The notes under the pieces were generated by a model. That model searched no databases, was not told the origin of the DNA, and was given only the letters and a program-made list of their open reading frames with translations. A DNA stretch of 64,000 bases, taken from a phage. Shown here one piece after another: positions 51,632-64,000 of this stretch; position 1 is the stretch's first letter, and every line of letters starts with the position of its first letter. The stretch is taken from sequence record NC_135731.1. One strand, given 5' to 3'. The position numbers and the translations under genes are program-made.

Positions 51632-52189
51632 GGTCCAGTTCTACCCTGTCAGGAGCCGGTAGCGACTGGAGTGCTGCCAGGCGGACGAAATGGGAATACT
51701 TCTCATTCTTATAACAATTCTCAAATATCGAGGCAGTGAGGCAAATTAATAGGTTAGGCCGTTCACACAGTGGCACAACATTTGCAACCTATCTTGTGGG
51801 AGTGAATGAGAATACCTATCATTGTGAGAATAGTTATCATTACGGGCAATTTAACATAATACCCATTATGCGCACCACTGGCGATACATACAGGGATTGA
51901 TAACATGAGTTACTGTTTACACACATAACAATTATATTTCTTACTATTTGTGTGGGATATAGTTAGCAGCCGATAGATTAGATATTGACCTGCGGACTTC
52001 TGACCATCTAGACGTCTAAACGCCCACACAACAAGGCTTATACATACATCGCTGAATGTAAACAGGGCCGCAAAAATGCTACCATACAAGCTTGTAAATT
52101 TTTCATGCAGCACTTGACAAAGAGGAGAAAAACTTGTCTGACACAATATGACTTAATTGCCACAACATGACACTTTTGCACACCTGATT

Positions 52190-52575
52190 GTTTGCATATC
52201 TAATAGTTTACATGGATAACTGTTCACATACTTATCATTTACATGATTGACTGTTTACACAGAGATGATAAGCCATGCCATTCGTTTGCATGATAACAAT
52301 TAACCAGTTTACAATTAACAAGTTAATAATCTTTCGCTGGCTATGCCAGGTGACTAGGTCACCCCTTCAGGTGTTTCTATGACATAATATAAAAGCAGGG
52401 CAACTATTAGCAGATCTATAGTTGCCTTGCTTGTCATGTCATGATTAACTAAATACAAGGCAACTATGATCTGATTAATAGTTTGCAGACAAACTATCAC
52501 GGGGGTGATGGTTACTGCTTTTATATTATGTCGCGACTCCGTCGCGCCATGCCATTCGTTTGCATAGTTGCCTTA
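52190..52575. repeat. complex repeat region (GTTTACA-like iterons, 19-bp inverted repeat, GCAACTAT palindromes)
   Basis: Repeated (A/T)GTTTACA(T/C) and CGTTTGCAT units 52205-52315; CCATGCCATTCGTTTGCAT at about 52273 and 52548; inverted repeat TGACATAATATAAAAGCAG (about 52379) / CTGCTTTTATATTATGTCG (about 52515); GGCAACTAT...ATAGTTGCC palindrome. Confidence 0.65.
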
Positions 52576-53179
52576 TTGTTACGAATAAAACAATTGCATT
52601 GTTAATGATTTCTTATCTTTCTCTTAGTCATCTAATGATTCCAGTCAGTATAGTAATGTACAGTAAACATTAGACGACTAAAGATTTCTCTGTTTATTAT
52701 AACTTACCGTTACAATTTCGGACTGTTTACCAAGAATGTTGACACATAAGCTGATTTATGTTATGCAGTTTACACGAATAATTATTTTATGCAGGTATTG
52801 ACTATTCCGTTATTCCATGGTTGGAATAAATACTTAGCAGACTATAGAATGGTGAGCGTACGTAAATTCTGAGATCTGGCGGCTATAGTTATACTCGATT
52901 TTTCACGTAGAACACGCTTTTGTGAGTGTGTAAGTGTATGACTTATAAAGATTTTTAGTTGTTGACAAGATATTGAAGATGTGCATCAGGTTAAATTTTG
53001 TGCAATAGCGGCATTACGTGCAATCTTGAGAGAGAAAACGGGTAAAAATGGCCCTGCTACCACACAATGAAAAATTATGCAATAGTTATTTTACATGTAT
53101 GTTTGTACAGTGTGTGGGATTGATGGCTAGTCAATTATTCCACTTGCCAGGCTGGGCCGTTTGTGGTAGGAGAAATACA

Positions 53180-53215
53180 GACAAAAAGAAAGGGGCCTTT
53201 TAAAGCCCCTGATAG
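53180..53215 (-). terminator. rho-independent terminator (minus strand)
   Basis: Minus-sense hairpin GGGGCTTTAAAAGGCCCC followed by TTTCTTTTT, immediately downstream of 53229..53648. Confidence 0.55.
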
Positions 53216-53228: not shown

Positions 53229-53648
53229 TTATAATGATTCGTATATTTCATAGATTCGATTTGCCAGGTCGTTACGGTAGCGGAATTTTTCCTCACGTTT
53301 GATCATCAGATCTTTAAAGCCATATTCTTTAAGCACTTCATTAACTTTATGGCGGCATACCTTCATATTATCCTGTGCGTCACCAATAAACCTGTTGCTA
53401 TGGTGCATGGCTTTAATTTCTTCTTCCAGGACCAGGGCAACTATGCGGACCGGATCAAGCTGATAGGCGGTAACATCAATGCGGCATTGTAAACGGCTTT
53501 TTACGTCTGCCACCGGATATACTGCAACCTCTTCCCCGTCAACATTGACAATAATTAGTTTACCATCGATTTCGAATCCTTTCGCCGCCGGACCGTGACA
53601 AAAAGCGTTATCAAAGCTATATGCCGGATTATTAGATTTAATGTTCAT
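53229..53648 (-). CDS. hypothetical protein
   Basis: 139 aa; AGAGG-type RBS. Confidence 0.45.
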   Translation of the reverse strand: MNIKSNNPAYSFDNAFCHGPAAKGFEIDGKLIIVNVDGEEVAVYPVADVKSRLQCRIDVTAYQLDPVRIVALVLEEEIKAMHHSNRFIGDAQDNMKVCRHKVNEVLKEYGFKDLMIKREEKFRYRNDLANRIYEIYESL

Positions 53649-53793
53649 GGTGTTTTTACCTCTTAGTTAATTTTCTTACAACTTCCCTTCAAAAAAGAAT
53701 ATAGCAAAACTGCCGATCCTTGTCAACCAAGGATAGCATAATTTTTATGTGATCAAGGGGCTTTATTGCCCCCTGATCGTGCAACTTGTTGTA

Positions 53794-54057
53794 TTATTTG
53801 TTGCTCATCCAGTTTTCCCAGGCTGCCTGATAATCTGCCTCACTGCGGCGGATCTCTTCTTGCTCTTCAAGTCGGATCTCTTCTTCCAGGTACCCCAAGA
53901 TATCGGCTTTTTTGGTCTGGCGTAACATCCAATCATCTTTTTTACGGGTAAAGATCTTGTACGCTTTCTCGCAAACCTCTTTTTTGCTACCTTTTTGGAC
54001 TTCAAGAACTTTGTAGGCCATGTACTGAACTAGTTTAAGCTGATCAAGACGTTTCAT
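53794..54057 (-). CDS. hypothetical protein
   Basis: 87 aa, charged; RBS and GC hairpin in leader. Confidence 0.4.
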   Translation of the reverse strand: MKRLDQLKLVQYMAYKVLEVQKGSKKEVCEKAYKIFTRKKDDWMLRQTKKADILGYLEEEIRLEEQEEIRRSEADYQAAWENWMSNK

Positions 54058-54117
54058 GATGTTTACCTCTTTGTGTGGTTCTGATTAGTGGGCCTCCCGG
54101 CCCGTGTCATTATCTTA

Positions 54118-54390
54118 TTACTTACGGCGGCAGAATTCAAGCGTTTTTAATTGATAATCTTCCTCAGCCTGGAGTACAACCGCCTCGATCATTTCGTTGG
54201 CATTGTTGAAGCCATACCCTTTAGCGAACTCGTCCGCACCACCTTCGTGATCATGTTCTGCGTTCATCGCTTCCACAAAATGGAATTCCAAATTGTTGAG
54301 GTAGGGGCTTGATGTGCCGTCTTCTTTTTCGATGAGATCCCAAATAGCATTAAAACGTGATTCGACTTCTTGATTAATCCAGCTTGACAT
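54118..54390 (-). CDS. hypothetical acidic protein
   Basis: 90 aa; RBS and GC hairpin (GGGCACCTTTGCCC) in leader. Confidence 0.4.
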   Translation of the reverse strand: MSSWINQEVESRFNAIWDLIEKEDGTSSPYLNNLEFHFVEAMNAEHDHEGGADEFAKGYGFNNANEMIEAVVLQAEEDYQLKTLEFCRRK

Positions 54391-54608
54391 AGTGTTTTCC
54401 TCTCTTCTGGTTGTTGTGTGGGCACCTTTGCCCCTTCAAGATAAATGTTACCCCACCCCCCTGGCAGATGTCAACGGTTTTTATAGTTCTTATATGACAG
54501 GCAGGCCCGGTGATTGTCTCCCCCTGTTCCCAAGTGCCGCCCGTTTAATAAGAATAGCAAAAGGGGCCGAACAAGTCAACCCCAAAATCAGTACCAAAAC
54601 ACTTTTAT

Positions 54609-54920
54609 TTATACGGTCCGATCATTGGCCTTTGTCCAGGACCTGGCGATCCGTTTCCCGGTCACCTGGAACGGAGGCTGCATTGTGTGTAATGAGTCCA
54701 GAGTAAGGGAGGACCGTTTACGGCGTATCTTCAGGATCGCCAATGTATTGTCCATCTCACGGCCAGGTCCTGGGCGGTATGGTGTGCCTCCAGCGTTAAG
54801 GTTGATGATCTCATGTATTGAGATCCGGCGTTGTTTTGCTTCCGCATCTTTGAAGATAGCCAGCGGAGGCGCTATGCGTTGCCGATACCAATCTAAAACG
54901 GTTGGCGTAATAGCGATCAT
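54609..54920 (-). CDS. hypothetical protein
   Basis: 103 aa; G-rich RBS; overlaps plus-strand ORFs judged spurious. Confidence 0.3.
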   Translation of the reverse strand: MIAITPTVLDWYRQRIAPPLAIFKDAEAKQRRISIHEIINLNAGGTPYRPGPGREMDNTLAILKIRRKRSSLTLDSLHTMQPPFQVTGKRIARSWTKANDRTV

Positions 54921-55108
54921 ATTTTACCCCCTATGTAGTCCGGTCGGTTTTTCTCTGTCATACGCTTAAGCAATTCTTGCATGTTGCTTATGGCTTGTAG
55001 TGTATCCTCTTCAAGGGATGAATCAAGATAATCAGGATCATTCTTCACCTTGCAATGATTATGATAACGCAGTACCGCCAGTACTTTTTTAACTTCTTCC
55101 GCTGTCAT
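54917..55108 (-). CDS. hypothetical protein
   Basis: 63 aa; weak RBS. Confidence 0.3.
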   Translation of the reverse strand: MTAEEVKKVLAVLRYHNHCKVKNDPDYLDSSLEEDTLQAISNMQELLKRMTEKNRPDYIGGKI

Positions 55109-55253
55109 TATCGCGCCTAAAACAATGAGTTAATATATAACACCAGATCGCTGACTACCAGGACAACATTAATCAGCACATACCTAACCATAAAGGGAAA
55201 GATCGCCAGCATTGCCGCCACGATCCCCATGGTAATAATTATCTTTCTTATGG

Positions 55254-55538
55254 TTAACGGTTCACGTAAGTTTTCCCGTTCACGGTTATGGGCAGATCCT
55301 CCAGGTCTGGATCTTCCTTAAGGTCGCGAGCAAGCTCACCGCACCGGATACCCTCGAATCCGTAGTACTCTGTTGTGCCGTCCTTAAAAGTTTTAGCGGC
55401 AAGGCATAAGCGATAAGTAACCCCGATTTGATTGACGGCATGAATATCCGTTAGATTAACCTCTTTTGCCAGCTCTTTAGCCATTACAGGCGCATTAAGT
55501 CCAACAACCAGGGTAACCACTGCGATCATCTTTTTCAT
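55254..55538 (-). CDS. small secreted/periplasmic protein
   Basis: Signal peptide MKKMIAVVTLVVGLNAPVMA; 94 aa with two Cys. Confidence 0.45.
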   Translation of the reverse strand: MKKMIAVVTLVVGLNAPVMAKELAKEVNLTDIHAVNQIGVTYRLCLAAKTFKDGTTEYYGFEGIRCGELARDLKEDPDLEDLPITVNGKTYVNR

Positions 55539-55629
55539 TGTGTCTATCCTCTTTCTGCTACGTTTAAGGCGGCGGTAACCGCCTGTTTATGCTTTGTTGG
55601 TTAATTTTCAGGTATCTGTATAAATTAAA

Positions 55630-55869
55630 CTATGCTGTACGCTCAACTATAACAACGGTTTGGGGGATCTCCCCTTCCACCACTAGTAAGGCCTTTTTCT
55701 GCGTGATAGATATCTTTACCCGTTGCAGCGTGGCGGTGAAGTCTTTCATTTCGTCACGCGGTGTTTTAGTGCAGTACCAGATCTCAGGCTTGCCGATCTG
55801 TAAGTTGCGTAAAAATTCCGTTTTGCCTGTTTTGTTTTTGTAACCGTTATAACCTTTATTGCTTTTCAT
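55630..55869 (-). CDS. hypothetical protein
   Basis: Track ORF 55630..55950; start re-set to ATG with AGAGG RBS (MKSNKGYNGYKNK...). Confidence 0.4.
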   Translation of the reverse strand: MKSNKGYNGYKNKTGKTEFLRNLQIGKPEIWYCTKTPRDEMKDFTATLQRVKISITQKKALLVVEGEIPQTVVIVERTA

Positions 55870-56211
55870 GGTGTTTACCTCTTCTTTGTTCCAGGTGGCG
55901 GACCATTCCACCGCCTTATGTATTATGCTTTGTAAGATGGCTGTTGTCAAACTATTTTAACGATAATCATCGTACGCTTTATTAACCTGGCGGATATAAC
56001 ATTCAAAAGCCAGATCAATAGATTTATATTCACGGCTATACTCACCATAGGAAACCACATACATTTCTATAGCTTCCTCATATGCGAGGAGAATAGAATC
56101 TAAGCCTACGATCTCGGTCTTTGCAATAATAGCCATGATTTTTATCCTCTTTGTGGTTGGTGGGGCTTGTTGCTCCCTTTGATTTATATATTACAGTTTT
56201 ATATGGTCATG

Positions 56212-56445
56212 TCAACTATTTTCAAAAAATTTTTCTGCTGTGATATTCTTCCCGGTAGGGTTCGCTACTTTCAAAATTCTATCATGCACCGGACGCCCGA
56301 AAGAATAAGATCCGTATACAGTAAACCAATAATCACCGTCAGGCTGTACTATTACCGCCGCATATGGTACGCCTTTCTCGTTATTGCTAACAAAATAGAT
56401 CACATTGCCATTAATAGCCTCGGTGCGTTTAATTTGTTCCATCAT
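56212..56445 (-). CDS. hypothetical protein
   Basis: 77 aa; RBS. Confidence 0.4.
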   Translation of the reverse strand: MMEQIKRTEAINGNVIYFVSNNEKGVPYAAVIVQPDGDYWFTVYGSYSFGRPVHDRILKVANPTGKNITAEKFFENS

Positions 56446-56509
56446 GATGATTTACCTCTCTTTATTTTCATAATTTTATGCTGTAGGGGCCTTTTCGGCC
56501 CCGCCAGGT

Positions 56510-56794
56510 TTATTTATTGATAGCGTGCAGCGGGAAAGCTACGCCAGGTTGATAAATAACCTTTACAACCTCATCAGGACAAAAGAAGTTGCAGAACTCA
56601 CCGCAGTAGGCCTCATCCTCTTTCAACTCTTCATTAACATACTCAAAAAAGTAGTCGATGCTTGGATAATCCTGGCCGGGATTATAGTCAACCATCGTTA
56701 ATAATAACTCTTGATCATTCCGTAGGATATGCATACCCGCTTTTAAGTATTTTGCTTCCATTTCTACTACATCGCCAGCGGTAACAATAGCCAT
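56510..56794 (-). CDS. hypothetical acidic protein
   Basis: 94 aa; GGGGGCCTCCCCC hairpin in leader. Confidence 0.4.
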   Translation of the reverse strand: MAIVTAGDVVEMEAKYLKAGMHILRNDQELLLTMVDYNPGQDYPSIDYFFEYVNEELKEDEAYCGEFCNFFCPDEVVKVIYQPGVAFPLHAINK

Positions 56795-56926
56795 GATTTT
56801 AACTCCTATCTATCTGGTCAATGATTGGGGGCCTCCCCCTCGACAACTCTTATTATCCATATTGTCGGGAATGATGCAAGTACTTCTTTAAAAATTTTTT
56901 AAGCTCCTTAGGGCCGTTGTAACGTC

Positions 56927-56958
56927 AAAACAATAAAGGCTATGCGATTGCATAGCCT
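56927..56958 (-). terminator. rho-independent terminator (minus strand)
   Basis: Minus-sense hairpin AGGCTATGCAATCGCATAGCCT followed by TTATTGTTTT, downstream of 56996..57346. Confidence 0.5.
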
Positions 56959-56995
56959 GCTAGTGTTTAGGTCGCTGTAGGCCCTGCCTGGGGCC

Positions 56996-57346
56996 TTATT
57001 TTGCATTCTTGCCTGTATTGCCGCCACGGTACCAGCGTTTGCGGTGAAAATGGTAATAATCACCCTCGGCATTAAACATCAGATGATTTTCAATAACCAG
57101 CTTACGAAGGTGGGCCGGATCTTGTTCCATTCTTGCCAGATTCCGGCGGCTGTTACGTAAACGGATAAATTCCATATTCAGGCCGTTGATTGCAGCATGG
57201 ATGTTAAAGTAACCACCTTTGAGACGTTCACGCATGGTGTTAAGCTCAACACAATATACAGATTTCTCACAAATCAAGGTATTAGCTAGGGCGCGGACCT
57301 GGGCAAGGTGGTTAAGCTCATTAAGGTAATATAATTTAACTTTCAT
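56996..57346 (-). CDS. hypothetical basic protein
   Basis: 116 aa. Confidence 0.4.
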   Translation of the reverse strand: MKVKLYYLNELNHLAQVRALANTLICEKSVYCVELNTMRERLKGGYFNIHAAINGLNMEFIRLRNSRRNLARMEQDPAHLRKLVIENHLMFNAEGDYYHFHRKRWYRGGNTGKNAK

Positions 57347-57363
57347 AAAATCACCTGTTGAAA

Positions 57364-57672
57364 TTAGTTTGAGAAAACATCGTTCACAATAGCGATCACA
57401 ATGCCGCCCACCTTGTCACGGTCAACAATGCACAAATCACCATAGATCATGTGGTAGTCTGGATGATCTTTCACAGAATAGTCAATAAGTGTTTTCTTGT
57501 CATCCAGCTTCGTAACTTCCATTCTCATAACGATATGAGAATCATCAAAGGCATTATTCCGAAAAGTCATAGCCTGACCGCCAGGGCACCCAGTGATCTC
57601 CACTTCCACACCATCTACGATCTGACCATCAAAGAAATAAAGATTATTAGCCTGGATAAACATGTCTATCAC
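57364..57672 (-). CDS. hypothetical protein
   Basis: 102 aa; AAGGAG RBS; preceded by the 45-bp palindromic element. Confidence 0.4.
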   Translation of the reverse strand: MIDMFIQANNLYFFDGQIVDGVEVEITGCPGGQAMTFRNNAFDDSHIVMRMEVTKLDDKKTLIDYSVKDHPDYHMIYGDLCIVDRDKVGGIVIAIVNDVFSN

Positions 57673-57709
57673 TCCTTGTTAACTGCGTGGTATTTTAACA
57701 GGGTTTAAA

Positions 57710-57759
57710 TTTACTTTATTGATGGCCCTGGAGTCAAGGCCATCTAAAAATAAATTTTA
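57710..57759. repeat. conserved palindromic intergenic element, copy 1
   Basis: TTTACTTTATTGATGGCCCTGGAGTCAAGGCCATCTAAAAATAAATTTTA; stem GATGGCC/GGCCATC; minus sense contains TTGACT. Confidence 0.7.
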
Positions 57760-57764
57760 CAGGC

Positions 57765-57947
57765 CTACAATCTCTTTGATTCGTTTAACCGCTGCTGGGG
57801 GTAAAAATTATGGTAACCAATCACGCGAGTGATACTAATCGCCGTTTGATGATCTTCATAGTCGCCCTTGAAGATTTCTTGACCGTCAAGCAGCACGGCA
57901 ATTTTTTCTTCTTTTTTGAAGTTAATAACGCGGATATTGTTGCTCAT
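57765..57947 (-). CDS. hypothetical protein
   Basis: 60 aa. Confidence 0.3.
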   Translation of the reverse strand: MSNNIRVINFKKEEKIAVLLDGQEIFKGDYEDHQTAISITRVIGYHNFYPQQRLNESKRL

Positions 57948-58429
57948 TTTGTTTCTCCTTTCTGGTTTTTGTGGTGGTGGGGATTAGCTCCACCGTTGAT
58001 TGTTATTATCCACATTCCGGACCGGATTGCAACACCCCGGAAGAAAAAATTTTTTTTTAAAAGATAGGCCCCCATGATCGGGGGCCGTTATCAGTTACTT
58101 ACAGCGATAAAATACATCCCTACGCCTAACAATATTTCAAGGGCGATGATCTCAAGCCATACCATAGCACGGCGCGCCTTATCGGTGCGGGGCTTATCCT
58201 TGGTTGTCATCGTCTCCCTCTTCCCTCCTGTTAGCAGTTACGTGGTTTGCAATGGCCCCCAGGAGTATTATCACCACGCACATTGCAAGAAAAATTATCT
58301 CTGTCGTTGTTCGATCCATTGTTATAAAATTCCTCAAGATCAGGCCTGAAAATAAAGCGTTCGTTATTGAATCCGTCACGCCAGGCGGCTGGCTTCAAAT
58401 CTTCACTAAAGGGATTAATTAACGTGGCA

Positions 58430-58801
58430 TTATTTAAACGGTTGGCCCACATATTTTCTATTCCTCTCAAATAGGCGATCCGCCTCAGTTAAACATATCT
58501 CATGGGCTTGATCTCTGGTTTTAGCCTCATCAAAAACCTGTTGTGCCAGGCTGCAGCGTAGGGAGACTGGAAGATCACTATAATAGGCGTTGACAAACGT
58601 TTGAGCGTCGTACAGGTCTGAAAATACTTTACCCTTTCTATTATTCCCCTTGTCAACAATTGCAAGGATAACCAATACAGTAGTTGCGACTACCCCCAGG
58701 AAAATAGATATAATAAACCATAAAAAGGCGGATCTTCCCATCTTGCCAGCGATCCAGGCGTTAAACAAGGCAACCAATACAGCCAAAATAATAAATTCCA
58801 T
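58430..58801 (-). CDS. small membrane protein (two TM helices)
   Basis: Track ORF 58430..58834; start re-set to MEFIILAVLVALFNAWIAG with AGAGG RBS; second TM FLWFIISIFLGVVATTVLVILAIV. Confidence 0.45.
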   Translation of the reverse strand: MEFIILAVLVALFNAWIAGKMGRSAFLWFIISIFLGVVATTVLVILAIVDKGNNRKGKVFSDLYDAQTFVNAYYSDLPVSLRCSLAQQVFDEAKTRDQAHEICLTEADRLFERNRKYVGQPFK

Positions 58802-58865
58802 TCTATGTACCTCTTTTACAGTTCTGATTAACAATAAGGCGGCAAATATGCCGCCTGTTACCTGA

Positions 58866-59246
58866 TTAAAAATTATCGCCGTAAATCTTTCCGCTTTCTA
58901 CCCATACCACCACGCGAGGCATACTATCCCACACGTCTTGTTTTAGATTGAGCGCGTGCAATTCTTCGGTGGTGCTCATACCGGGCACGGGCTGATTGTA
59001 TACTGCAAAACGACCGCCTGCATAATCATAGGCCAGGGTTAAATCACACTGGATCATCTTTTTGATCATGGCATTAAGCATGGCGTTAGCCGCATATTGA
59101 TCACGTTTTAAAGGCAACTCTTTGATTAGTTTGCGATAGTTTTCGATATGGTCGCACACTGTTTCACGTGGAAGATCTTTCATATCCTCGCGAAAGGTAA
59201 CCAGGTTAAACATAACGGTGTCAATAGCTTTAGTAGTGTTTTTCAT
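58866..59246 (-). CDS. hypothetical protein
   Basis: 126 aa; promoter, 5' hairpin and AGAGG RBS upstream. Confidence 0.45.
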   Translation of the reverse strand: MKNTTKAIDTVMFNLVTFREDMKDLPRETVCDHIENYRKLIKELPLKRDQYAANAMLNAMIKKMIQCDLTLAYDYAGGRFAVYNQPVPGMSTTEELHALNLKQDVWDSMPRVVVWVESGKIYGDNF

Positions 59247-59299
59247 AATGTTTACCTCTTTGTTTTGTGTGGGGGCAAACGTCTTGCCCCTTGAGTTTT

Positions 59300-59327
59300 A
59301 ATATAGCAGGTTTTTAGATTATTGCAA
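59300..59327 (-). promoter_or_regulatory. sigma70-like promoter (minus strand)
   Basis: Minus sense TTGCAA - 16 nt - TATATT, then GGGGCAAGACGTTTGCCCC hairpin at predicted 5' end. Confidence 0.5.
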
Positions 59328-59335
59328 CACTTTAT

Positions 59336-59959
59336 TTATGAAAAACTCATCTCTCCATATTCATCCACATCAAACCGCCAATCATTGGCCTCAATAAGGC
59401 CGATCAGGTTTTCGGTAGAGAACTGTTCTAGATAGGCCTCCTCCAGGTCTACGTAAACCTTGCGGGATAGCTCCCGTACCGTCTCGGTGATCAGCTCTTC
59501 CAGATCTTCCACTTTATTTTCTTGTTTGGCGGTCAGGTATAGCCATGTAGTATCGATGTACCCGCTTACAGTGTTTTCGTGACTATAGCGGCTATATGGA
59601 TCACGCTCAACGCTTGCGGATAGTTCGCCATCGTGCATTGTGCCGAACAAGTGACGAATTGATCGGAACTTGGTCAGGGCCTTTACTTTACGCAAGAATT
59701 TTTCTAAATCCACGTTTTCCGCACTGATTGACGCGCCGTCACCCTGGCACCAAAAGCCTGACCAATGTACTTCGGTATCTTCAAGGCCATACTCTGGAAA
59801 AACATATTCTTTATAGTATTCAATTACACTTTCTGCAAAAAAGTTATCCCCGCTGTGTTCTTCTCTTTCGCGTACCATTTCAATGGCTTTTTCTTTTTGT
59901 TCGTCGGTCAGCACGTCGAAAGATAAATTGTAACCTGTGGTAATGTTAACGGTGGTCAT
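59336..59959 (-). CDS. hypothetical acidic protein
   Basis: 207 aa, largest gene of this block, very acidic; no motif recognised. Confidence 0.45.
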   Translation of the reverse strand: MTTVNITTGYNLSFDVLTDEQKEKAIEMVREREEHSGDNFFAESVIEYYKEYVFPEYGLEDTEVHWSGFWCQGDGASISAENVDLEKFLRKVKALTKFRSIRHLFGTMHDGELSASVERDPYSRYSHENTVSGYIDTTWLYLTAKQENKVEDLEELITETVRELSRKVYVDLEEAYLEQFSTENLIGLIEANDWRFDVDEYGEMSFS

Positions 59960-60016
59960 GATATTTTCTCCTGTTTTCTTTGTTAGTGGCGGGAAGTTTT
60001 CCCGCCTATGTTTTTA

Positions 60017-60044
60017 ATTATACTTATTGAGATTTACTTGTCAA
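60017..60044 (-). promoter_or_regulatory. sigma70 consensus promoter (minus strand)
   Basis: Minus sense TTGACA - 16 nt - TATAAT, then AGGCGGGAAAACTTCCCGCC hairpin and AGGAG RBS. Confidence 0.6.
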
Positions 60045-60046
60045 CA

Positions 60047-60295
60047 CTATTTTTTTAAATTATTGTGGCGCAAAATGTTTAAAATCTCCTCAACGTCATC
60101 AACACGGCGGCAATTTTTAAACGCTACCAATTGCCCCATGATTTTAATCACTGGGCGGCCTTGCCAGTGCCCCTGAAGAAAGCGCGCCTTGACTTTATCG
60201 GTGGAACTATCGCGCCACCAAATAGCCTTGTTGTTGCAGCAGTAAAAATTATTCAGGATAACATCAACTTTATCAAAATTTTTTAATTTACGCAT
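60047..60295 (-). CDS. hypothetical protein
   Basis: 82 aa. Confidence 0.4.
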   Translation of the reverse strand: MRKLKNFDKVDVILNNFYCCNNKAIWWRDSSTDKVKARFLQGHWQGRPVIKIMGQLVAFKNCRRVDDVEEILNILRHNNLKK

Positions 60296-60327
60296 GGCGT
60301 TTACTCCTTTCTCTCTTTGATGTGGTT

Positions 60328-60355
60328 AGTATAGCTAACCTGTTGACGATGTCAA
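60328..60355 (-). promoter_or_regulatory. sigma70-like promoter (minus strand) with palindrome over the -10
   Basis: Minus sense TTGACA - 16 nt - TATACT; palindrome GGTTAGCTATACTAACC spans the -10. Confidence 0.55.
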
Positions 60356-60479
60356 TGATATTTTTAACGCCATAAAACGGCCCTGGGCGATGTTTTCAGG
60401 TTAAAGGGGGGCGATTGCATAGGTGGGGGCCTTTTTGGCACTTATAGGGCCAACCAGGGGCGCTATTCGTAGGATAGAA

Positions 60480-60512
60480 ATAAAAAGCCCCGCCATTGTG
60501 CGGGGCGTTGGT
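60480..60512 (-). terminator. rho-independent terminator (minus strand)
   Basis: Minus-sense hairpin GCCCCGCACAATGGCGGGGC followed by TTTTTATTTC, downstream of 60515..60712. Confidence 0.55.
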
Positions 60513-60514
60513 TG

Positions 60515-60712
60515 TTATTTGTCTTTATGGCGGTATCGTTCCGCCTGTCGTTCACGTTCCAAAAGCAGGCCCGGTAATTTGCGATCATAGTGATTCCTCC
60601 AGATCTTCCCGAACCTTTTCGGCTTATTCAGTTTATTGTTACGCTGGCGGCGTTCCGGCAGCTCTTCGGAATCGTGGGGGCGCTTTACAATTTTTTCGAA
60701 ATTAATTTTCAT
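60515..60712 (-). CDS. small basic protein
   Basis: 65 aa, Arg/Lys-rich. Confidence 0.35.
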   Translation of the reverse strand: MKINFEKIVKRPHDSEELPERRQRNNKLNKPKRFGKIWRNHYDRKLPGLLLERERQAERYRHKDK

Positions 60713-61056
60713 AAATTTCCCCCTTTACTGATTTCAATATTTGCCTGAATCGCCCGGATACGCCGTTTTATAACCTCCTGATCCTTGCAATCATATCCCC
60801 AAAAGTCTACGATCTTTGCGCCTCCGGCCTTTAGGCGGTATAGTGTTTCTTGCATCTTGTAAGCTGGGATCGGTCGCGGTGTTACCTGGTCGCCTCTCTC
60901 ATCTTTGTACTTGATTATGCAGTCTTCGTTGTCGTTGAATACCCAAAATGGGTATTCTGTGAGCGCGTTGCTATCTTTTTCGTTTTTAGATTGGATCTTG
61001 TTTACAATTAAAGCCGTAGCAATAGCGCCAATAATAAAACTAGCCCCGCTGATCAT
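60709..61056 (-). CDS. hypothetical protein with N-terminal TM segment
   Basis: 115 aa; N-terminal FIIGAIATALIV. Confidence 0.4.
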   Translation of the reverse strand: MISGASFIIGAIATALIVNKIQSKNEKDSNALTEYPFWVFNDNEDCIIKYKDERGDQVTPRPIPAYKMQETLYRLKAGGAKIVDFWGYDCKDQEVIKRRIRAIQANIEISKGGNL

Positions 61057-61129
61057 GTACTTTCTCCTTTCATGGTGTTAATAAATTATCTTTATAGACG
61101 GCCCTGCAGCCAGGACCACCGAAAAATAA

Positions 61130-61375
61130 CTATTTCACAATGCCTACAAAACAGATCCCGCCTTCACCTATATAAGCAATGTCGGTAATTTTATAATTTG
61201 TTAAGATCCGCGTATTCAGCTCGTTAATAAAATCGGTCATCGCGTTGGTGTAGTTGTCTTCCATGTCCAGGGAATAATCCCAGGTGTAAACCTTTTTACG
61301 TCCGAAGCCTTTTACCATGATCCGGGCGCTTTTGGTGTTGGTGGGCGCATAATATTTTGTGATTAGTGCTGCCAT
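61130..61375 (-). CDS. hypothetical protein
   Basis: 81 aa. Confidence 0.4.
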   Translation of the reverse strand: MAALITKYYAPTNTKSARIMVKGFGRKKVYTWDYSLDMEDNYTNAMTDFINELNTRILTNYKITDIAYIGEGGICFVGIVK

Positions 61376-61415
61376 GGTTTTAACTCCTCATTAGTTCAGT
61401 GTTAACAGTGTAAAG

Positions 61416-61465
61416 TTTACTTTATTGATGGCCATGGAGTCAAGGCCATCTGAAAATAAATTTTA
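61416..61465. repeat. conserved palindromic intergenic element, copy 2
   Basis: TTTACTTTATTGATGGCCATGGAGTCAAGGCCATCTGAAAATAAATTTTA. Confidence 0.7.
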
Positions 61466-61804
61466 CTCGTTTTCTTCCAGCTCTGAAAGCTCTTCTTTCA
61501 CTTCTTCCAGCTCTGTCTGCAATTCCTGGTATTCTTCATCGTCCTCAATATCCAGGCTGTCGATGTAGTCGCTAAATCCGCAGCGGTAAGCGATAGGATC
61601 TAACTCCTTGAGGATACGCGACGGAAGAAAAGAAATGTTTCCGATCATAATTTCGCCGTAGATCTCGTCTAACCATTCATCATAGTTTTCGTCGTACTTG
61701 TCCTCGTCGATTTCAAAGTTATCGATCTTGTTCTCAAGGTCTGCGATCTGTTTTTTCAGCGCGGCGATCTGCATAGCTTTTTCTGCGGCGGTCATAGTAG
61801 TCAT
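61463..61804 (-). CDS. hypothetical acidic coiled-coil protein
   Basis: 113 aa, E/D-rich heptad-like sequence. Confidence 0.4.
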   Translation of the reverse strand: MTTMTAAEKAMQIAALKKQIADLENKIDNFEIDEDKYDENYDEWLDEIYGEIMIGNISFLPSRILKELDPIAYRCGFSDYIDSLDIEDDEEYQELQTELEEVKEELSELEENE

Positions 61805-61855
61805 GGTGTTTTCTCCTTTTGTGTGTTCTGGGAAGTTTTCCCGTTTACGTGTTTA

Positions 61856-61883
61856 AGTATACCGATTTGGGTTAGCTTGTCAA
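61856..61883 (-). promoter_or_regulatory. sigma70-like promoter (minus strand)
   Basis: Minus sense TTGACA - 16 nt - TATACT, followed by GGGAAAACTTCCC hairpin. Confidence 0.55.
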
Positions 61884-62037
61884 TTAAAAATTTAAGAAAA
61901 ATTTTGCAAAACTGTTGGCGCTACTCATTAACATTTGCGCCAGGATGTAACCGACAATGCAAACGATAATAGTTACCTTTGTGTATTGGCGTGCAGTGCT
62001 CATCTTAAAGCCCCCTTTTTCGCTTAGTTGAGACTAG

Positions 62038-62085
62038 TTTACTTTATTGATGGCCCTGGAGTCAAGGCCATCTGAAAATAAACTT
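62038..62085. repeat. conserved palindromic intergenic element, copy 3
   Basis: TTTACTTTATTGATGGCCCTGGAGTCAAGGCCATCTGAAAATAAACTTA. Confidence 0.7.
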
Positions 62086-62488
62086 AATAAGTTTTCAGTA
62101 CTTTCCCGTCCAACCTGTCAAGCTGGATCTCGATAGCTGTAGAAAACCTATTGTACACCACGTCGCCCATAGAATCCAACCAGTCTATGACATTATACAC
62201 TTGCTCTTTGTTCTTGCAGGTCCGGATCCGTTTCATGATGTAAGCCGGATCAATATTGGTACTCTCGTTGGTGTTCCCCTGTACCTGGTTTGCCGTATTA
62301 GTTACATCTTTAATGGCCTTTACCACCACCTGGAATGGCTTTAAGGTGCCTTTTGCGTTCATCTCACGCGCTTTTGCGGCGCGGTTGTTATATGTTACAC
62401 AACGGCGGCAAATGTTGATCAAATGCATGTCAATAATTTTTTCATCGTTTGCCAGTTCGTTCATGATGCGGCGTACGTTCTTATTCAT
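62084..62488 (-). CDS. hypothetical protein
   Basis: 134 aa; promoter, 5' hairpin, RBS upstream. Confidence 0.45.
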   Translation of the reverse strand: MNKNVRRIMNELANDEKIIDMHLINICRRCVTYNNRAAKAREMNAKGTLKPFQVVVKAIKDVTNTANQVQGNTNESTNIDPAYIMKRIRTCKNKEQVYNVIDWLDSMGDVVYNRFSTAIEIQLDRLDGKVLKTY

Positions 62489-62536
62489 GATCTTTTTCCT
62501 TCGTGTTGGCGGGAAACATTCCCGCCTTTTGTGTAT

Positions 62537-62564
62537 AGTTTACTTAAATTTTGCAGCGTGTCAA
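62537..62564 (-). promoter_or_regulatory. sigma70-like promoter (minus strand)
   Basis: Minus sense TTGACA - 16 nt - TAAACT, followed by GGCGGGAATGTTTCCCGCC hairpin. Confidence 0.5.
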
Positions 62565-62570
62565 CAATTT

Positions 62571-62969
62571 TTATTCGTGGGCGCATGTTACAATGTGCTT
62601 TTTATAGCCCAGGCGGTCAGCAAGTGCCGACAAAAACTCTTCTTCATAGATCCAGCCGTTGGCAGTGATCCCCATAGCATTTAATGCGCTCTCAAGTGCT
62701 GCGTTAGCTTTATCATAACCGTGACCGCTCGCCTTCCCGCCAGTATAGCCGTACTTATTGTTCTTGTTGTCGTGTATCCAAAAAACGCAGTAGTGAGTGT
62801 TCCCGCTGGCGGCGGCATAATACCGGATCTCAGCTACTTCGTGCAAATTATTGTCATCGTCCAGGCCCACCAGATTATAAGCCTTATAAAATCCACGATC
62901 ACGGCGGCAGTTCTTGACATCAGAAAAAGAAAAGTCCGCATTATCAAAATTAAAGGTGGTGGTTTTCAT
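62571..62969 (-). CDS. hypothetical protein
   Basis: 132 aa, Gly/Tyr-rich. Confidence 0.4.
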   Translation of the reverse strand: MKTTTFNFDNADFSFSDVKNCRRDRGFYKAYNLVGLDDDNNLHEVAEIRYYAAASGNTHYCVFWIHDNKNNKYGYTGGKASGHGYDKANAALESALNAMGITANGWIYEEEFLSALADRLGYKKHIVTCAHE

Positions 62970-63033
62970 GATTTTATCCTCTTGGTGTCTTTTGTGCTTT
63001 TAGTGTATTTGGTGTCGTACTATATGTCAATAC

Positions 63034-63231
63034 TTATTTTTTATTAAACCAGTGGTTGATCTGGCCTTTTGTCAGGGCGCAACGATTAAGCTGTTGCCGG
63101 GTATAGCTCTGACCACGACGGAATTTATAAAGGCCTTGCCCGTTGTTGATGGTTACATCCACCCGGCAAATCACTTGATCCGTGACCACCTGGCGAGTGT
63201 TGCGACGTACTTTGATTCCGTAGGCGTTCAT
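63034..63231 (-). CDS. hypothetical protein
   Basis: 65 aa, AGAGG RBS. Confidence 0.35.
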   Translation of the reverse strand: MNAYGIKVRRNTRQVVTDQVICRVDVTINNGQGLYKFRRGQSYTRQQLNRCALTKGQINHWFNKK

Positions 63232-63469
63232 GATTTTTTATCCTCTTTGTTAATTAGTGCGGTGTTGTTCACCTTGCGATAATAAGAATAACAAGAACTG
63301 CCCGAGCTGTCAACCATTATGTAAAATTATTTTTTGGGTAGAATTCTCCAGCCGCCACCCCCTGCCAGGTTTGCAAGCTTTCACTCTCCCACCTGGTCAG
63401 TTAGGTCCTGCTAGGGCTGGCCCCGCCAGGTTGCAGCGGTTGACGCACTATGTTAGAAAAATTTTTTGA

Positions 63470-63730
63470 AAAGTGTTGACAACGGCCCCACCAGGTGGCA
63501 CAATATACATATCGAAAGGACGGCAGGCACCGGTGACGGGGGAGACAACCACCGGGGATGGGCGCTGCATAAAATGAGAACGGTTATCATTATCATTTAA
63601 AAATTTATGCAAAAAGTCCTTGCTTTCTTTGTCCTGTGTGATACTATAATAACAAGCCGGGGCAGTAGGGGCCGGGAGACAATCACCGGGCCTGCCCGTT
63701 ATTCTGCAAACGAGAATGATTATCATTCAA
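63470..63730 (+). repeat. two tandem promoter-plus-structured-GC units (possible small RNA genes)
   Basis: Unit 1: TTGACA...CACAAT then GGCAGGCACCGGTGACGGGGGAGACAACCACCGGGG...GAGAACGGTTATCATTATCATT; unit 2: TTGCTT...TATAAT then GGGGCAGTAGGGGCCGGGAGACAATCACCGGGCC...GAGAATGATTATCATT. Confidence 0.4.
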
Positions 63731-63829
63731 AATTCTAAATGAGAACTCCTCGCATTTAATAAATTTAATTAGCATGCTAATTACCCTCCGTAACAATTTC
63801 CTATAAAACAGTATCCCATAAAATATTCC

Positions 63830-64000
63830 CATATAGAAATTTTAAAAATCCATTTCTGAAAACGAAAAATCGATTTCGTCCCCAAAAATTTTAGGTCGAG
63901 AGCCGGAACGATTTCCAGAAAATCCGATTCAGAAAACGAAAAACAAATCGAGTACTGAGAAATTTATCGAGAAAAATTTTCAGAAAATTCAATCTTTGAA
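63830..64000. repeat. AT-rich tandem direct repeats at window end
   Basis: Recurring TTTCTGAAAACGAAAAATCGATTT / TTCAGAAAACGAAAAACAAATCGAG / TTTTCAGAAAATTCAA units. Confidence 0.5.

What the first reader, a model, noticed from the sequence alone, without database searches (positions are those of the whole stretch)
53229..63231. Minus-strand island of about 25 small genes built as promoter - 5' hairpin - RBS - ORF units
Upstream of many genes the minus sense reads TTGACA(or TTGCAA)-16 nt-TATA(A/C)T, then within about 10 nt a perfect GC-rich hairpin (GGCGGGAA-n4-TTCCCGCC at 59987 and 62508, GGGGCAA-ACGTC-TTGCCCC at 59270, GGCGGCA-AATAT-TGCCGCC at 58841, and others), then CACACAAA, an AGAGG Shine-Dalgarno and ATG. 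The hairpins sit at the predicted transcript 5' end, not behind a U-tract, so they look like 5' stabilising or regulatory stem-loops rather than terminators. The products are mostly unrecognisable and include secreted and membrane proteins. This uniform, strongly promoted architecture is what one expects of an immediate-early host-takeover or anti-defence island.
Basis: partly seen in the sequence, partly recalled or inferred. Interest (0 to 1): 0.75.

Follow-up and report, generated by a model that had tools for sequence, protein, structure and literature searches.

The report
Phage early-gene promoter–hairpin cassettes
This stretch of an rV5-like E. coli phage holds 28 small genes of unknown function, many with their own strong host-type promoter followed at once by a GC-rich hairpin; the design is real and non-random, but it matches the "promoter-early stem-loop" cassettes already described in T4-like phages.

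Summary
The window is Escherichia phage phiWec196 (Vequintavirus, rV5-like; 100% identity). Positions 63231-53229 (minus strand) hold 28 small genes. All fall in PHROG families of unknown function. I curated 19 sigma70-type promoter units. Ten have a GC-rich hairpin starting 6-13 nt after the -10 (class A), followed by an A/C-rich, U/G-poor leader, a strong SD and ATG. Five carry the -35 inside a hairpin (class B). Four have no hairpin. A strict scan finds 6 promoter+hairpin units against 0.65 in shuffles. Across relatives, stems change less than loops (p=0.001). Avunavirus Av-05 (weakly) and the jumbo phage PBECO4 use the same design with different hairpin sequences. Several breakpoints between relatives fall exactly at the -35 hexamer or in the repeated leader. 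The island therefore matches PeSL cassettes (promoter-early stem-loop; Arbiol 2010, Comeau 2014), here in a new phage lineage and with the stem-loop mostly in the initially transcribed region. A 5'-terminal mRNA-stabilising or insulating role is the best-supported mechanism, but it is inferred: no 5'-end data exist. The "immediate-early anti-defence island" reading is plausible but untested.

The parts
53229..63231 (-). Block of 28 small genes (37-207 aa). It corresponds to rV5 ORF164-196 and is the distal end of the rV5 transcription unit 'genes 10-1-238-164'.
   Evidence: ORF translations. 100% identity to phiWec196. rV5 annotation. All products fall in PHROGs of unknown function.
62486..62564 (-). 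Class A cassette of gene 3: TTGACA-16-TAAACT, 10 nt, hairpin 62526-62508 (GGCGGGAAtgtTTCCCGCC, -13 kcal/mol), 19-nt leader, ATG 62488.
   Evidence: z -3.5. In relative L005 the loop changes TGT->ACA while the stem stays intact.
61802..61883 (-). Class A cassette of gene 5 (weak): TTGACA-16-TATACT, 13 nt, hairpin 61842-61830 (GGGAAaacTTCCC, -4 kcal/mol), ATG 61804.
   Evidence: z -1.05.
59957..60044 (-). Class A cassette of gene 10: TTGACA-16-TATAAT, 10 nt, hairpin 60006-59988 (GGCGGGAAaacTTCCCGCC), 28-nt leader, ATG 59959.
   Evidence: z -5.3. L005 has a C->T change that gives a G.U pair.
59244..59327 (-). Class A cassette of gene 11: TTGCAA-16-TATATT, 9 nt, hairpin 59290-59272 (GGGGCAAgacgtTTGCCCC), CACACAAAACAAAGAGG leader, ATG 59246.
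   Evidence: L014 and L016 have a differently sequenced but equally stable stem.
57945..58032 (-). Class A cassette of gene 15: TTGCAA-16-GATAAT, 10 nt, hairpin 57994-57976. The window copy is weakened; relatives have GGGGAgctaaTCCCC. ATG 57947.
56792..56880 (-). Class A cassette of gene 18: TTGCAT-16-GATAAT (or CTTGCA-17-GATAAT), 12 nt, hairpin 56839-56827 (GGGGGaggCCCCC), ATG 56794.
   Evidence: The hairpin is eroded in L005 and L014.
56134..56215 (-). Class A cassette of gene 20: TTGACA-16-TAATAT, 10 nt, bulged hairpin 56177-56162 (relatives have a perfect GGGGCaacaaGCCCC), ATG 56136. A JEP1 recombination junction lies at 56210, just after the -35.
55867..55950 (-). Class A cassette of gene 21: TTGACA-17-CATAAT, 6 nt, hairpin 55915-55897, ATG 55869. 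A recombination junction lies at 55942, just after the -35.
54388..54474 (-). Class A cassette of gene 26: TTGACA-18-TAACAT, 11 nt, hairpin 54433-54420 (GGGCAaaggTGCCC), ATG 54390.
   Evidence: Variation among relatives is confined to the loop.
54055..54140 (-). Class A cassette of gene 27: TTGAAT-17-TAAGAT (inside the 3' end of gene 26), 8 nt, hairpin 54103-54090 (GGGCCgggaGGCCC), ATG 54057. In rV5 an extra gene is flanked by two copies of this leader.
   Evidence: (loop GGGA->AAAA or GAAA).
56486..56502 (-). GC hairpin (GGGGCCgaaaaGGCCCC) plus leader upstream of gene 19. It has no U-tract and only a degenerate class-B-like promoter upstream.
55567..55584 (-). GC hairpin upstream of gene 22, with no recognisable promoter and no U-tract.
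62036..62096 (-). Class B unit before gene 4: a 61-nt repeat with hairpin 62072-62049 that carries the -35 TTGACT, and a -10 TAAACT in an A-rich arm that pairs with the upstream T-rich arm.
   Evidence: (family D1).
61414..61474 (-). Class B unit before gene 6 (hairpin 61450-61427).
61084..61144 (-). Degenerate class B unit before gene 7 (hairpin 61120-61097).
57708..57768 (-). Class B unit before gene 16 (hairpin 57744-57721).
54551..54583 (-). Class B composite terminator/promoter: GGGGTTGACTTGTTCGGCCCC + TTTTG + TATTCT. It is the recurrent breakpoint at 54562 in 6 of 8 relatives.
54490..54552 (-). Element e1: a GC-rich segment with the invariant core GGAGACAATCACCGG, placed between the class B promoter and the gene 26 promoter. 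Function unknown.
   Evidence: (I1).
60487..60506 (-). Canonical intrinsic terminator after gene 8 (GCCCCGC..GCGGGGC + TTTTTATTT).
58837..58856 (-).
   Evidence: Annotated as a terminator in Murica.
58067..58086 (-). Intrinsic terminator after gene 14.
56937..56958 (-). Intrinsic (bidirectional) terminator after gene 17.
53191..53210 (-). Terminator after gene 28, at the end of the island.

Best explanation
What it is: the island is the accessory ('hyperplastic') end of the sigma70-promoted, presumably early, arm of a Vequintavirus genome. Its ORFan genes sit in exchangeable expression cassettes of the PeSL type. Each cassette has an A/T-rich tract, a near-consensus host sigma70 promoter, a GC-rich stem-loop, an unstructured A/C-rich (U- and G-poor) leader, a strong SD and the ATG.

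Shown here:
- The parts and their spacing.
- Their excess over chance.
- Preservation of the stems among relatives.
- Reuse of the same grammar with other hairpin sequences in Avunavirus (weakly) and a jumbo Asteriusvirus phage.
- Recombination joints at the -35 hexamer and in the leader.

Inferred mechanism:
- In the ten class A cassettes RNAP starts about 7 nt after the -10, so the hairpin becomes the 5'-terminal structure of the cassette's own mRNA, with about 0-7 unpaired nt.
- As with the ompA, papA and T7 phi10 leaders, such a hairpin should hinder RppH and 5'-end-dependent RNase E attack.
- The short U-poor linker and a bound ribosome would leave little single-stranded RNA for RNase E.
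- The hairpin would also lock up G/C-rich sequence, so the RBS stays open whatever lies upstream (insulation).
- In read-through transcripts the same hairpin would act as a 3'-exonuclease barrier for the upstream cistron.
- The repeated promoter and leader sequences also serve as crossover points for gaining, losing or swapping single genes.
For: - Identity and context.
- Curated units and spacing (gap 6-13 nt after the -10; 19-32 nt to the ATG; upstream 20 nt 75% A+T against 57% for the island).
- Excess over shuffles (6 against 0.65), specific to the island. rV5 8, JEP1 9, L005 6 and PBECO4 9 against 0.45-0.7, all above the shuffle maxima. Av-05 has 3 against 0.45, which only equals its shuffle maximum.
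- No U-tract follows the hairpins on the sense strand.
- Predicted 5' UTR folds keep the 5' hairpin and an open SD.
- Leader composition A .55, C .25, G .10, T .10.
- Substitutions per site in 8 relatives: stem .084, loop .176, flank .126 (Fisher p=.0013 and p=.027). Some loops are fully replaced over intact stems, and G.U-type changes occur.
- Junctions exactly at TTGACA in three independent cases and in the repeated leader in one.
- Single genes g19, g20 and g24 are shared at 83-94% nt identity with unrelated phage groups.
- PeSL definition, including the subclasses 'overlapping the -35' and 'downstream of the -10': (PMC2839356). Direct look at RB49 PeSLs.
- 5'-terminal stem-loop protection in E. 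coli: Emory 1992, Bouvet & Belasco 1992 and Arnold 1998. I did not read these papers. Their titles appear in the reference list of PMC3997798; what they show is from my own knowledge.
Against: - No transcript 5' ends, half-lives or timing data exist for any Vequintavirus, so the start site and the stabilising effect are inferred.
- Several hairpins are weak (g5 -4 kcal/mol; g15, g18 and g20 are eroded in the window or in relatives). Four promoters do without one, so the hairpin is not essential.
- With 3-7 unpaired 5' nucleotides, some units may be only partly protected.
- The stem-versus-loop statistic is not corrected for shared ancestry.
- The PeSL authors found that one stem-loop cut downstream reporter expression like a strong terminator. 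That points to attenuation rather than stabilisation.
- Breakpoints tend to fall in intergenic DNA anyway, because indels inside genes are selected against.
Confidence: 0.55

Rival explanations
1. Attenuator reading (the original PeSL interpretation). The stem-loops mainly terminate or dampen transcription arriving from upstream cassettes, so each gene is expressed chiefly from its own promoter and early transcription does not pile up along the array.
For: The PeSL paper reports that one stem-loop placed between a promoter and lacZ reduced expression like rrnB T1. Some class B units are hairpin + T-run + -10, which is a true composite terminator/promoter: 54583-54563 here and CAGGGCTTGCAATGGTCCTG-TTTTTTG-TTATACT in relatives. 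The island is already subdivided by canonical terminators.
Against: Class A hairpins are followed by A/C-rich sequence rather than a U-tract, and stems are only 5-8 bp. Because they lie downstream of their own promoter, they would attenuate their own transcripts equally. The main class B repeat has its T-rich arm upstream and its A-rich arm downstream, which is the inverse of a terminator.
Confidence: 0.2
2. Recombination-module reading. The palindromes and repeated promoter and leader sequences persist mainly because they promote cassette gain, loss and exchange, through homologous or microhomology crossover and perhaps hairpin-stimulated breaks. Under this reading the hairpin has no role in the RNA.
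For: Junctions lie at the -35 hexamer in three cases and at the leader in one. Single-gene cassettes are shared with unrelated phages. A related GGGAA-n3-TTCCC hairpin core occurs in Vequintavirus and PBECO4. PeSL mini-circles have been reported.
Against: The crossovers map to the -35 or the leader, not to the hairpin itself. Hairpin sequences differ between cassettes, so they offer little homology. The fixed spacing to the -10 and the ATG, the preserved stems and the U-poor leaders are not needed for recombination. Other indels use coding microhomology or lie outside the cassettes.
Confidence: 0.12
3. Antisense-terminator reading. On the plus strand each class A hairpin is followed by the T-rich complement of the A-rich discriminator. 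It could therefore stop antisense (convergent or late) transcription before it runs over the early promoters.
For: The consensus scan scores 62508-62526, 59988-60006, 59271-59291, 57972-57998, 56162-56176 and 55567-55584 as terminator-like on the + strand. A large plus-strand gene block converges on the island at about 51-53 kb.
Against: Most of the T-tracts are interrupted or set back from the stem. No good plus-strand promoter lies inside the island. A terminator already sits at the convergence point (53191-53210). An A-rich discriminator is expected for strong promoters anyway. The fixed distance to the ATG is left unexplained.
Confidence: 0.06
4. Regulator-site reading. The hairpins are operators or RNA targets for a phage or host factor that switches the cassettes off (or on) after the early phase. 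Possible analogues are nut/boxB- or put-like antitermination, RegA/RegB-like control, or RNase III processing.
For: They sit at promoter-proximal positions. Some loops are GNRA- or boxB-like (GAAAA at 56496-56492; GGGA or GAAA at g27). The class B unit can form an interrupted stem of about 20 bp, long enough for RNase III.
Against: No sequence is shared among the class A stems or loops, so there is no common recognition element. The 5-8 bp stems are too short for RNase III. Rfam gives no match even at E<=1. No N, Q or RegB homologue was identified among the products.
Confidence: 0.07

Closest known systems
PeSL (promoter-early stem-loop) cassettes of T4-like phages RB49/phi1, PST and nt-1 (Arbiol et al. 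2010, PMC2839356; Comeau et al. 2014, PMC4122927)
   Same: Shared features:
- An A/T-rich tract ('AAAA..AGTTG') upstream of a consensus sigma70 promoter.
- A GC-rich (polyG...polyC) stem-loop.
- An A/C-rich leader, then SD and ATG.
- One cassette per small ORFan, in a variable genome region.
- Cassette sequences at indel junctions.
PeSL subclasses include stem-loops overlapping the -35 and stem-loops downstream of the -10. RB49 leaders (ACACACATCAAAACGAAAC..GGAG) resemble those here.
   Different: The host lineage differs: Vequintavirinae, and also the Asteriusvirus phage PBECO4, rather than Straboviridae. In the part of RB49 I examined, the stem-loop sits in the spacer or across the -10, so it is absent from the cassette's own mRNA. 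Here the dominant position is after the -10, so the stem-loop should be transcribed as the mRNA's 5' end. Class A units have no U-tract. I found no mention of PeSLs in Vequintavirus papers.
5'-terminal stabilising stem-loops of E. coli and phage mRNAs (ompA, papA, T7 gene 10 leader)
   Same: A stable hairpin within a few nucleotides of the 5' end, followed by a short leader and a strong RBS. This pairing of hairpin and ribosome site as two protective elements is the logic described for ompA (references listed in PMC3997798; the rest is my own knowledge).
   Different: The known cases are single genes with measured half-lives. Here there is a repeated design across about 10 cassettes with no experimental data. 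The hairpins are shorter (5-8 bp), and the predicted unpaired 5' segment (0-7 nt) is at the edge of what is known to protect.
Morons of lambdoid phages (a gene with its own promoter and terminator)
   Same: Autonomously expressed accessory genes inserted between other genes.
   Different: Morons are not flanked by conserved repeated regulatory sequences and are expressed from the prophage. Here the array is in a lytic phage and has a repeated grammar (discussed in PMC2839356).
T7 early-region RNase III processing sites
   Same: Intercistronic structured elements in a sigma70-transcribed early region. The class B palindromes reach about 20 interrupted base pairs.
   Different: Class A stems are far too short for RNase III. 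In T7 there is no promoter inside each site. Processing was not tested here.

Membership tests
PeSL cassettes | A sigma70-consensus early promoter in each unit | tested here: met
   There are 19 units. 11 score at least 10 of 12 matches, including TTGACA-16-TATAAT.
PeSL cassettes | [quoted passage not shown] | tested here: met
   The 20 nt upstream average 75% A+T, against 57% for the island. They share the motif AAAA(T)AGT(G)-TTGACA with RB49.
PeSL cassettes | A stable GC-rich stem-loop adjoining or overlapping the promoter, at one of five positions that include overlapping the -35 and downstream of the -10 | tested here: met
   Ten units have it downstream of the -10 and five have it around the -35.
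PeSL cassettes | SD and the start codon of a small ORFan at the 3' edge, with units clustered in a hyperplastic region | tested here: met
   All 28 genes fall in PHROGs of unknown function. Gene content varies among relatives.
PeSL cassettes | Cassettes act as recombination points for indels and replacements | tested here: inconclusive
   Junctions lie at the -35 at 60350, 56210 and 55942, and in the leader at 54089-54054. Other indels use coding microhomology or lie outside the cassettes. There was no genome-wide control for the general preference for intergenic DNA.
PeSL cassettes | The stem-loop acts as a transcription terminator or attenuator | not testable with these tools
   Sequence evidence only. 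Class A units lack a U-tract. Some class B units have a T-run.
PeSL cassettes | Occurrence in T4-like phages, the group in which the family was defined | tested here: not met
   The host genome is a Vequintavirus. The same design also occurs in Avunavirus and Asteriusvirus. This is a taxonomic limit, not a mechanistic one.
5'-terminal mRNA-stabilising stem-loops | The hairpin lies within a few nucleotides of the transcript's 5' end | tested here: inconclusive
   Predicted only. The gap of 6-13 nt after the -10 gives 0-7 unpaired nt if the start is 7 nt downstream. No 5'-end mapping exists.
5'-terminal mRNA-stabilising stem-loops | The hairpin prolongs mRNA half-life in an RNase E/RppH-dependent way | not testable with these tools
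   This needs half-life measurements with and without the stem in wild-type, rne and rppH hosts.
Intrinsic (rho-independent) terminators | A GC-rich hairpin immediately followed by a U-tract on the transcribed strand | tested here: not met
   The class A hairpins are followed by A/C-rich sequence on the sense strand. They meet the criterion only on the antisense strand. The hairpin at 58856-58837 does meet it.
Rfam RNA families | A covariance-model match | tested here: not met
   There is no hit at gathering score apart from tRNAs. At E<=1 the island gives only two chance-level hits.

The most novel reading that the evidence does not exclude
The 'promoter / 5'-terminal GC hairpin / U-poor A/C leader / strong SD' unit may be a dedicated, horizontally shared device that makes phage early mRNAs resistant to RNase E and RppH while the phage speeds up host mRNA decay. 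The rV5 paper reports a probable Srd homologue, gp11 (PMC3606486). That T4 Srd stimulates RNase E is from my own knowledge, and I did not check whether phiWec196 has the homologue. If true, the grammar would mark a pool of plug-and-play accessory genes that circulates between unrelated coliphage lineages (Vequintavirinae, Asteriusvirus jumbo phages, T4-like phages).
Probability: 0.2. Interest if true: 0.65.

Novelty: new member of a known kind. Interest (0 to 1): 0.4.

Why it matters
If confirmed, this would extend PeSL-type cassettes beyond T4-like phages to rV5-like phages and a jumbo coliphage. It would also show a variant in which the stem-loop is part of the mRNA's own 5' end. That gives a simple, testable rule for finding autonomously expressed accessory genes, which are candidates for host takeover or anti-defence. 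It also gives compact natural promoter, 5' hairpin and RBS parts, and a possible explanation for how single genes move between unrelated coliphages. The gain is incremental rather than conceptual, because both ingredients (PeSLs and 5' stabilising hairpins) are already known.

Tried and rejected
- Rfam, at gathering score and at E<=1: nothing relevant.
- Pfam and PHROGs on all 28 proteins: only gene 8 matches a named family, the T7 gp1.1 family.
- Gene 10 product, the most widespread protein of the island:
  - The homologue search found only hypothetical proteins.
  - The PDB profile search found nothing.
  - The afdb50 library was unavailable.
- IMG/VR search with the gene 10 protein gave only 2 close loci, so relatives were fetched from GenBank phages instead.
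- Literature search for Vequintavirus transcriptomics or TSS maps: none found. The PA5oct jumbo phage paper does not mention promoter-proximal hairpins.
- Looked for the Srd homologue at the strand switch near 11.8 kb. That locus holds an RNA ligase, cREC_REC and SIR2 instead.
- Tried to link gene 26 to RB49 through the rV5 note on NP_891837. RB49 did not appear among the rows listed by tblastn at E<=1e-5.
- C->T versus G->A asymmetry in the stems, to tell which strand is selected: too few events.
- e-elements: the consensus fold is not supported. Most of the 120 IMG/VR hits to the 16-mer lie in an unrelated conserved prophage gene.
- Rejected readings: RNase III sites (class A stems too short) and boxB/nut elements (no shared loop or boxA).

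Full report
**Identity and context**

The 10-kb region is 100% identical to Escherichia phage phiWec196 (LC739542.1). It is 91-97% identical, over most of its length, to dozens of Vequintavirus (rV5-like) myoviruses, including rV5 itself. It corresponds to rV5 ORF164-196. That is the distal end of the long same-strand unit 'genes 10-1-238-164' of the rV5 paper. That paper listed 33 sigma70 promoters and 20 terminators genome-wide and says nothing about promoter-proximal hairpins.

Upstream of the island lies a 1.1-kb ORF-poor gap, and beyond it more small genes on the same strand. Downstream, the island converges on a large plus-strand block.

I count 28 minus-strand genes of 37-207 aa.
- All fall in PHROG families of unknown function.
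- Only gene 8 passes a Pfam threshold: Phage_1_1, the T7 gp1.1 family.
- Five products look like membrane proteins, one has a signal peptide and several are very acidic.
- The most widespread product (gene 10) gives a confident AF2 model with no structural neighbour in the PDB.

**Checking the observation**

I read every intergenic region and curated 19 sigma70-type promoter units. They fall into three groups.
- Class A (ten units): a GC-rich hairpin starts 6-13 nt after the -10 hexamer (median 10) and ends 19-32 nt before the ATG. Nothing resembling a U-tract follows it. What follows is an A/C-rich leader (A .55, C .25, G .10, T .10, against the island's .33/.20/.23/.25), then AGAGG or GGAG.
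- Class B (five units): the -35 lies inside a hairpin. Three of these are near-identical copies of a 61-nt repeat.
- Plain (four units): no hairpin.

Nine genes have no promoter of their own.

The hairpin at 58856-58837 has no credible promoter and is followed by TTATTGTT. It is terminator-like and is annotated as a terminator in Murica. Canonical terminators at 60506, 58086, 56958 and 53210 subdivide the island.

Tests against chance:
- A deliberately strict scanner finds 6 promoter+hairpin units in the island against a mean of 0.65 (maximum 2) in dinucleotide shuffles.
- The adjacent same-strand region (1 of 20 promoters) and the other minus-strand early region of the window (1 of 33) are at background.
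- Folding the ten predicted 5' UTRs puts the hairpin at the 5' end in every MFE structure and leaves the SD essentially open. All ten z-scores are negative, mean -2.2.

The pattern is therefore real and local, but it covers about a third of the genes rather than being uniform.

**Comparative evidence**

Eight relatives (Murica, rV5, MaxTheCat, B9-1, JEP1, V18 and two IMG/VR contigs) were compared.
- Stems change less than loops or flanks.084.176 and .126 substitutions per site (Fisher p = .0013 and .027). The test is not corrected for shared ancestry.
- Loops can be wholly replaced over an intact stem: g3 TGT->ACA; g27 GGGA->AAAA or GAAA.
- Several single-sided stem changes are G.U-compatible.
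- g11 has an alternative stem of equal stability in two relatives.
- Some hairpins do erode: g18 in L005 and L014, and g15 and g20 in the window.

The design recurs with unrelated hairpin sequences.
- Replacement cassettes in JEP1 have it, for example TATAGT-10 nt-GGGCGGCAatagTGCCGCTC-ACAACTAAAAAGGG.
- Avunavirus Av-05 has it, for example TATTAT-12 nt-GGGGAGAGattgaCTCTCCCC-ACTAACGAAAGG.
- The jumbo Asteriusvirus phage PBECO4 shows it most clearly: TTGCAA-16-TATAAT, about 11-14 nt, then GGTGGGGAAtagTTCCCCACT and similar.
- Unit counts were 9 in PBECO4, 8 in rV5, 9 in JEP1 and 6 in L005, against 0.45-0.7 in shuffles. Av-05 had 3 against 0.45, with a shuffle maximum of 3, so its support is weak.

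**Mosaicism**

Breakpoints between the window and its relatives recur at the cassettes.
- In three independent cases the sequences are identical up to and including the -35 TTGACA and then diverge into a different spacer, -10, hairpin, leader and gene: L005 at 60350, JEP1 at 56210, and L005 at 55942. One search shows three further phages (pangalan, EmilHeitz, MaxBurger) whose match ends within 2 nt of that point; their junctions were not read.
- An extra rV5 gene between g26 and g27 is flanked by two copies of the leader ACTAATCAGAACCACACAAAGAG.
- The breakpoint at 54562, at the edge of a class B hairpin, is shared by 6 of 8 relatives.
- Other indels do not use the cassettes. Gene 21 of the window is a chimera made by an 8-nt coding microhomology. 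The gene 17 indel junctions lie in the ends of the flanking coding sequences, not in a cassette.
- Genes 19, 20 and 24 are individually shared at 83-94% nucleotide identity with Stephanstirmvirinae-type and jumbo phages.

**What it is**

These features match the PeSL (promoter-early stem-loop) cassettes of T4-like phages. A PeSL has an A/T-rich tract, a consensus sigma70 promoter, a polyG/polyC stem-loop at one of five positions, then SD and ATG. The five positions include overlapping the -35 and 'downstream of the -10'. PeSLs are concentrated around ORFans in hyperplastic regions and are implicated in modular shuffling.

I looked directly at an RB49 hyperplastic region.
- The upstream motif (AAAAAGTTG-TTGACA) and the A/C-rich leader (ACACACATCAAAACGAAAC..GGAG) are strikingly like those here.
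- RB49, however, places the stem-loop in the spacer or across the -10, so its own transcripts lack it.
- The island's dominant arrangement puts the stem-loop after the -10.
- Some class B units are true composite terminator/promoters, with hairpin, T-run and -10: 54583-54563 here, and CAGGGCTTGCAATGGTCCTG-TTTTTTG-TTATACT in relatives.
- The main class B repeat is different. It is a ~50-nt interrupted palindrome with a T-rich arm upstream and an A-rich arm (holding the -10) downstream. That is the inverse of a terminator in either direction.

**Mechanism**

Shown: the anatomy, its non-randomness, stem preservation, cross-lineage reuse and the junctions.

Inferred:
- E. coli RNAP usually starts 6-8 nt after the -10 (my knowledge), and a CAT/CAC start-like motif often lies 3-5 nt before the stem (read by eye from the sequences, not counted). 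The class A hairpin should therefore be the first structure of the cassette's own mRNA.
- 5'-terminal stem-loops protect E. coli mRNAs from 5'-end-dependent RNase E/RppH decay (ompA and papA; references listed in PMC3997798; the T7 gene 10 leader is from my own knowledge).
- The short U-poor linker and a bound ribosome would leave little substrate for RNase E. This fits every sequence feature and does not need a shared recognition sequence.
- An insulating role (keeping the RBS open in any upstream context) and a 3'-exonuclease-barrier role in read-through RNA would follow from the same structure.

I give this reading 0.55.

Rivals:
- Attenuation of upstream transcription, the PeSL authors' view, supported by their reporter assay (0.2).
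- A purely recombinational role (0.12).
- Regulator, RNase III or nut-like sites (0.07). No shared sequence, stems too short, no Rfam hit.
- Antisense terminators (0.06). Six class A hairpins score as terminator-like on the plus strand, because the A-rich discriminator reads as a T-tract there.

'5' stem-loops, not terminators' is the best-supported reading for class A, but it is unproven. 'Immediate-early host-takeover or anti-defence island' is reasonable by analogy (sigma70 consensus promoters, a T7 gp1.1-family gene, ORFans, very acidic small proteins). Nothing I could run tests it, and no Vequintavirus transcriptome was found.

**Novelty and score**

Both ingredients are known. In the searchable literature the term PeSL appears in only three papers, none on Vequintavirus. 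The rV5 genome paper and the other rV5-related papers I searched do not describe promoter-proximal hairpins.

I file the finding as a new member of a known kind, with a positional twist: the stem-loop is transcribed as the 5' end. It also appears in at least one further coliphage lineage, the jumbo phage PBECO4, and more weakly in Av-05. Interest is 0.4.

**Side observation**

Three copies of a GC-rich element with an invariant core GGAGACAAYCACCGG each lie 27-36 nt after a sigma70 -10.
- e1 is at 54552-54490 on the minus strand. e2 and e3 are at about 63513-63575 and 63647-63705 on the plus strand, inside the ORF-poor gap.
- The core recurs in Vequintavirus-like IMG/VR contigs and in two contigs with quite different flanking sequence; the one I searched (L127) has no GenBank phage match.
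- It has no supported consensus fold and no Rfam match.
- Its function is unexplained.

Noticed in passing
window 54490-54552 (-), 63513-63575 (+), 63647-63705 (+); loci L025, L069, L099, L126, L127: Three copies of a GC-rich element share an invariant core, GGAGACAAYCACCGG. Each lies 27-36 nt downstream of a sigma70-like -10 in its own orientation. The arms at 54494-54522 and 63674-63702 form a 29-nt inverted repeat 9 kb apart. The core also occurs behind promoters in Vequintavirus-like IMG/VR contigs and in two contigs with quite different flanks; the one searched (L127) has no GenBank phage match. There is no supported consensus fold and no Rfam hit, which suggests a sequence-specific site for an unknown factor.
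   Followed up: partly
window 63576-63600 and 63712-63730 (+): Two Fur-box-like palindromes (GAGAACGGTTATCATTATCATT; GAGAATGATTATCATTC, a perfect 7-1-7 inverted repeat) each lie about 15-20 nt after elements e2 and e3. They are conserved in relatives and in contigs L025 and L069.
   Followed up: partly
window 63232-64000 (continues to about 64330 in phiWec196; L017 17494-18595): A 1.1-kb ORF-poor gap lies just upstream of the island. It holds divergent plus-strand promoters (TTGACA at 63476) and 47-nt repeats spaced 74 nt apart (63845-63891 and 63919-63965). It may be the 'non-coding' box of the rV5 map, or an origin or regulatory region.
   Followed up: partly
window about 51300-53190: An ORF-poor, low-GC (0.39) stretch of about 1.9 kb lies between the convergent gene blocks. 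In phage isim the record starts here and two repeat_regions are annotated. It could be a terminus or packaging region.
   Followed up: partly
window 62036-62096, 61414-61474, 57708-57768: The class B repeat is annotated as a 'terminator' in the Murica record. It is in fact a ~50-nt interrupted palindrome with a T-rich arm upstream and an A-rich arm downstream. It encloses both promoter hexamers and is the inverse of a terminator in both directions. Its stem of about 20 bp could be an RNase III substrate.
   Followed up: partly
window 55869-55630 (gene 21): Gene 21 is a chimera. Its first ~14 codons match Murica gp159 and the rest matches Murica gp157. The two parts are joined at an 8-nt microhomology (AACAAAAC) by a 406-bp deletion.
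   Followed up: yes
window 56445-56212, 56136-55957, 55108-54917: Genes 19, 20 and 24 are each shared, as single-gene pieces, at 83-94% nucleotide identity with Justusliebigvirus- and phAPEC8-type phages and with jumbo Asteriusvirus-type phages.
   Followed up: partly
window 7262-7360 (-): Within the seven-gene tRNA cluster (7017-7829), ARAGORN calls a 99-nt 'tRNA-???' with a four-base anticodon (atcc). Rfam's tRNA model scores it 37.5 bits.
   Followed up: no
window 11836-13888 (+): A T4 Rnl1-like RNA ligase, a cREC_REC (cyclic-phosphate processing receiver) protein and a SIR2-family protein are encoded side by side at the strand switch. This may be an RNA-repair or NAD-related module.
   Followed up: no
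GenBank records MG0656xx ('Campylobacter phage C5, D#, C14, ...'): 23 records labelled as Campylobacter phages match this E. coli Vequintavirus island; the two listed in full (C5, D#) are about 93% identical over 96% of it. The host labels look doubtful.
   Followed up: no
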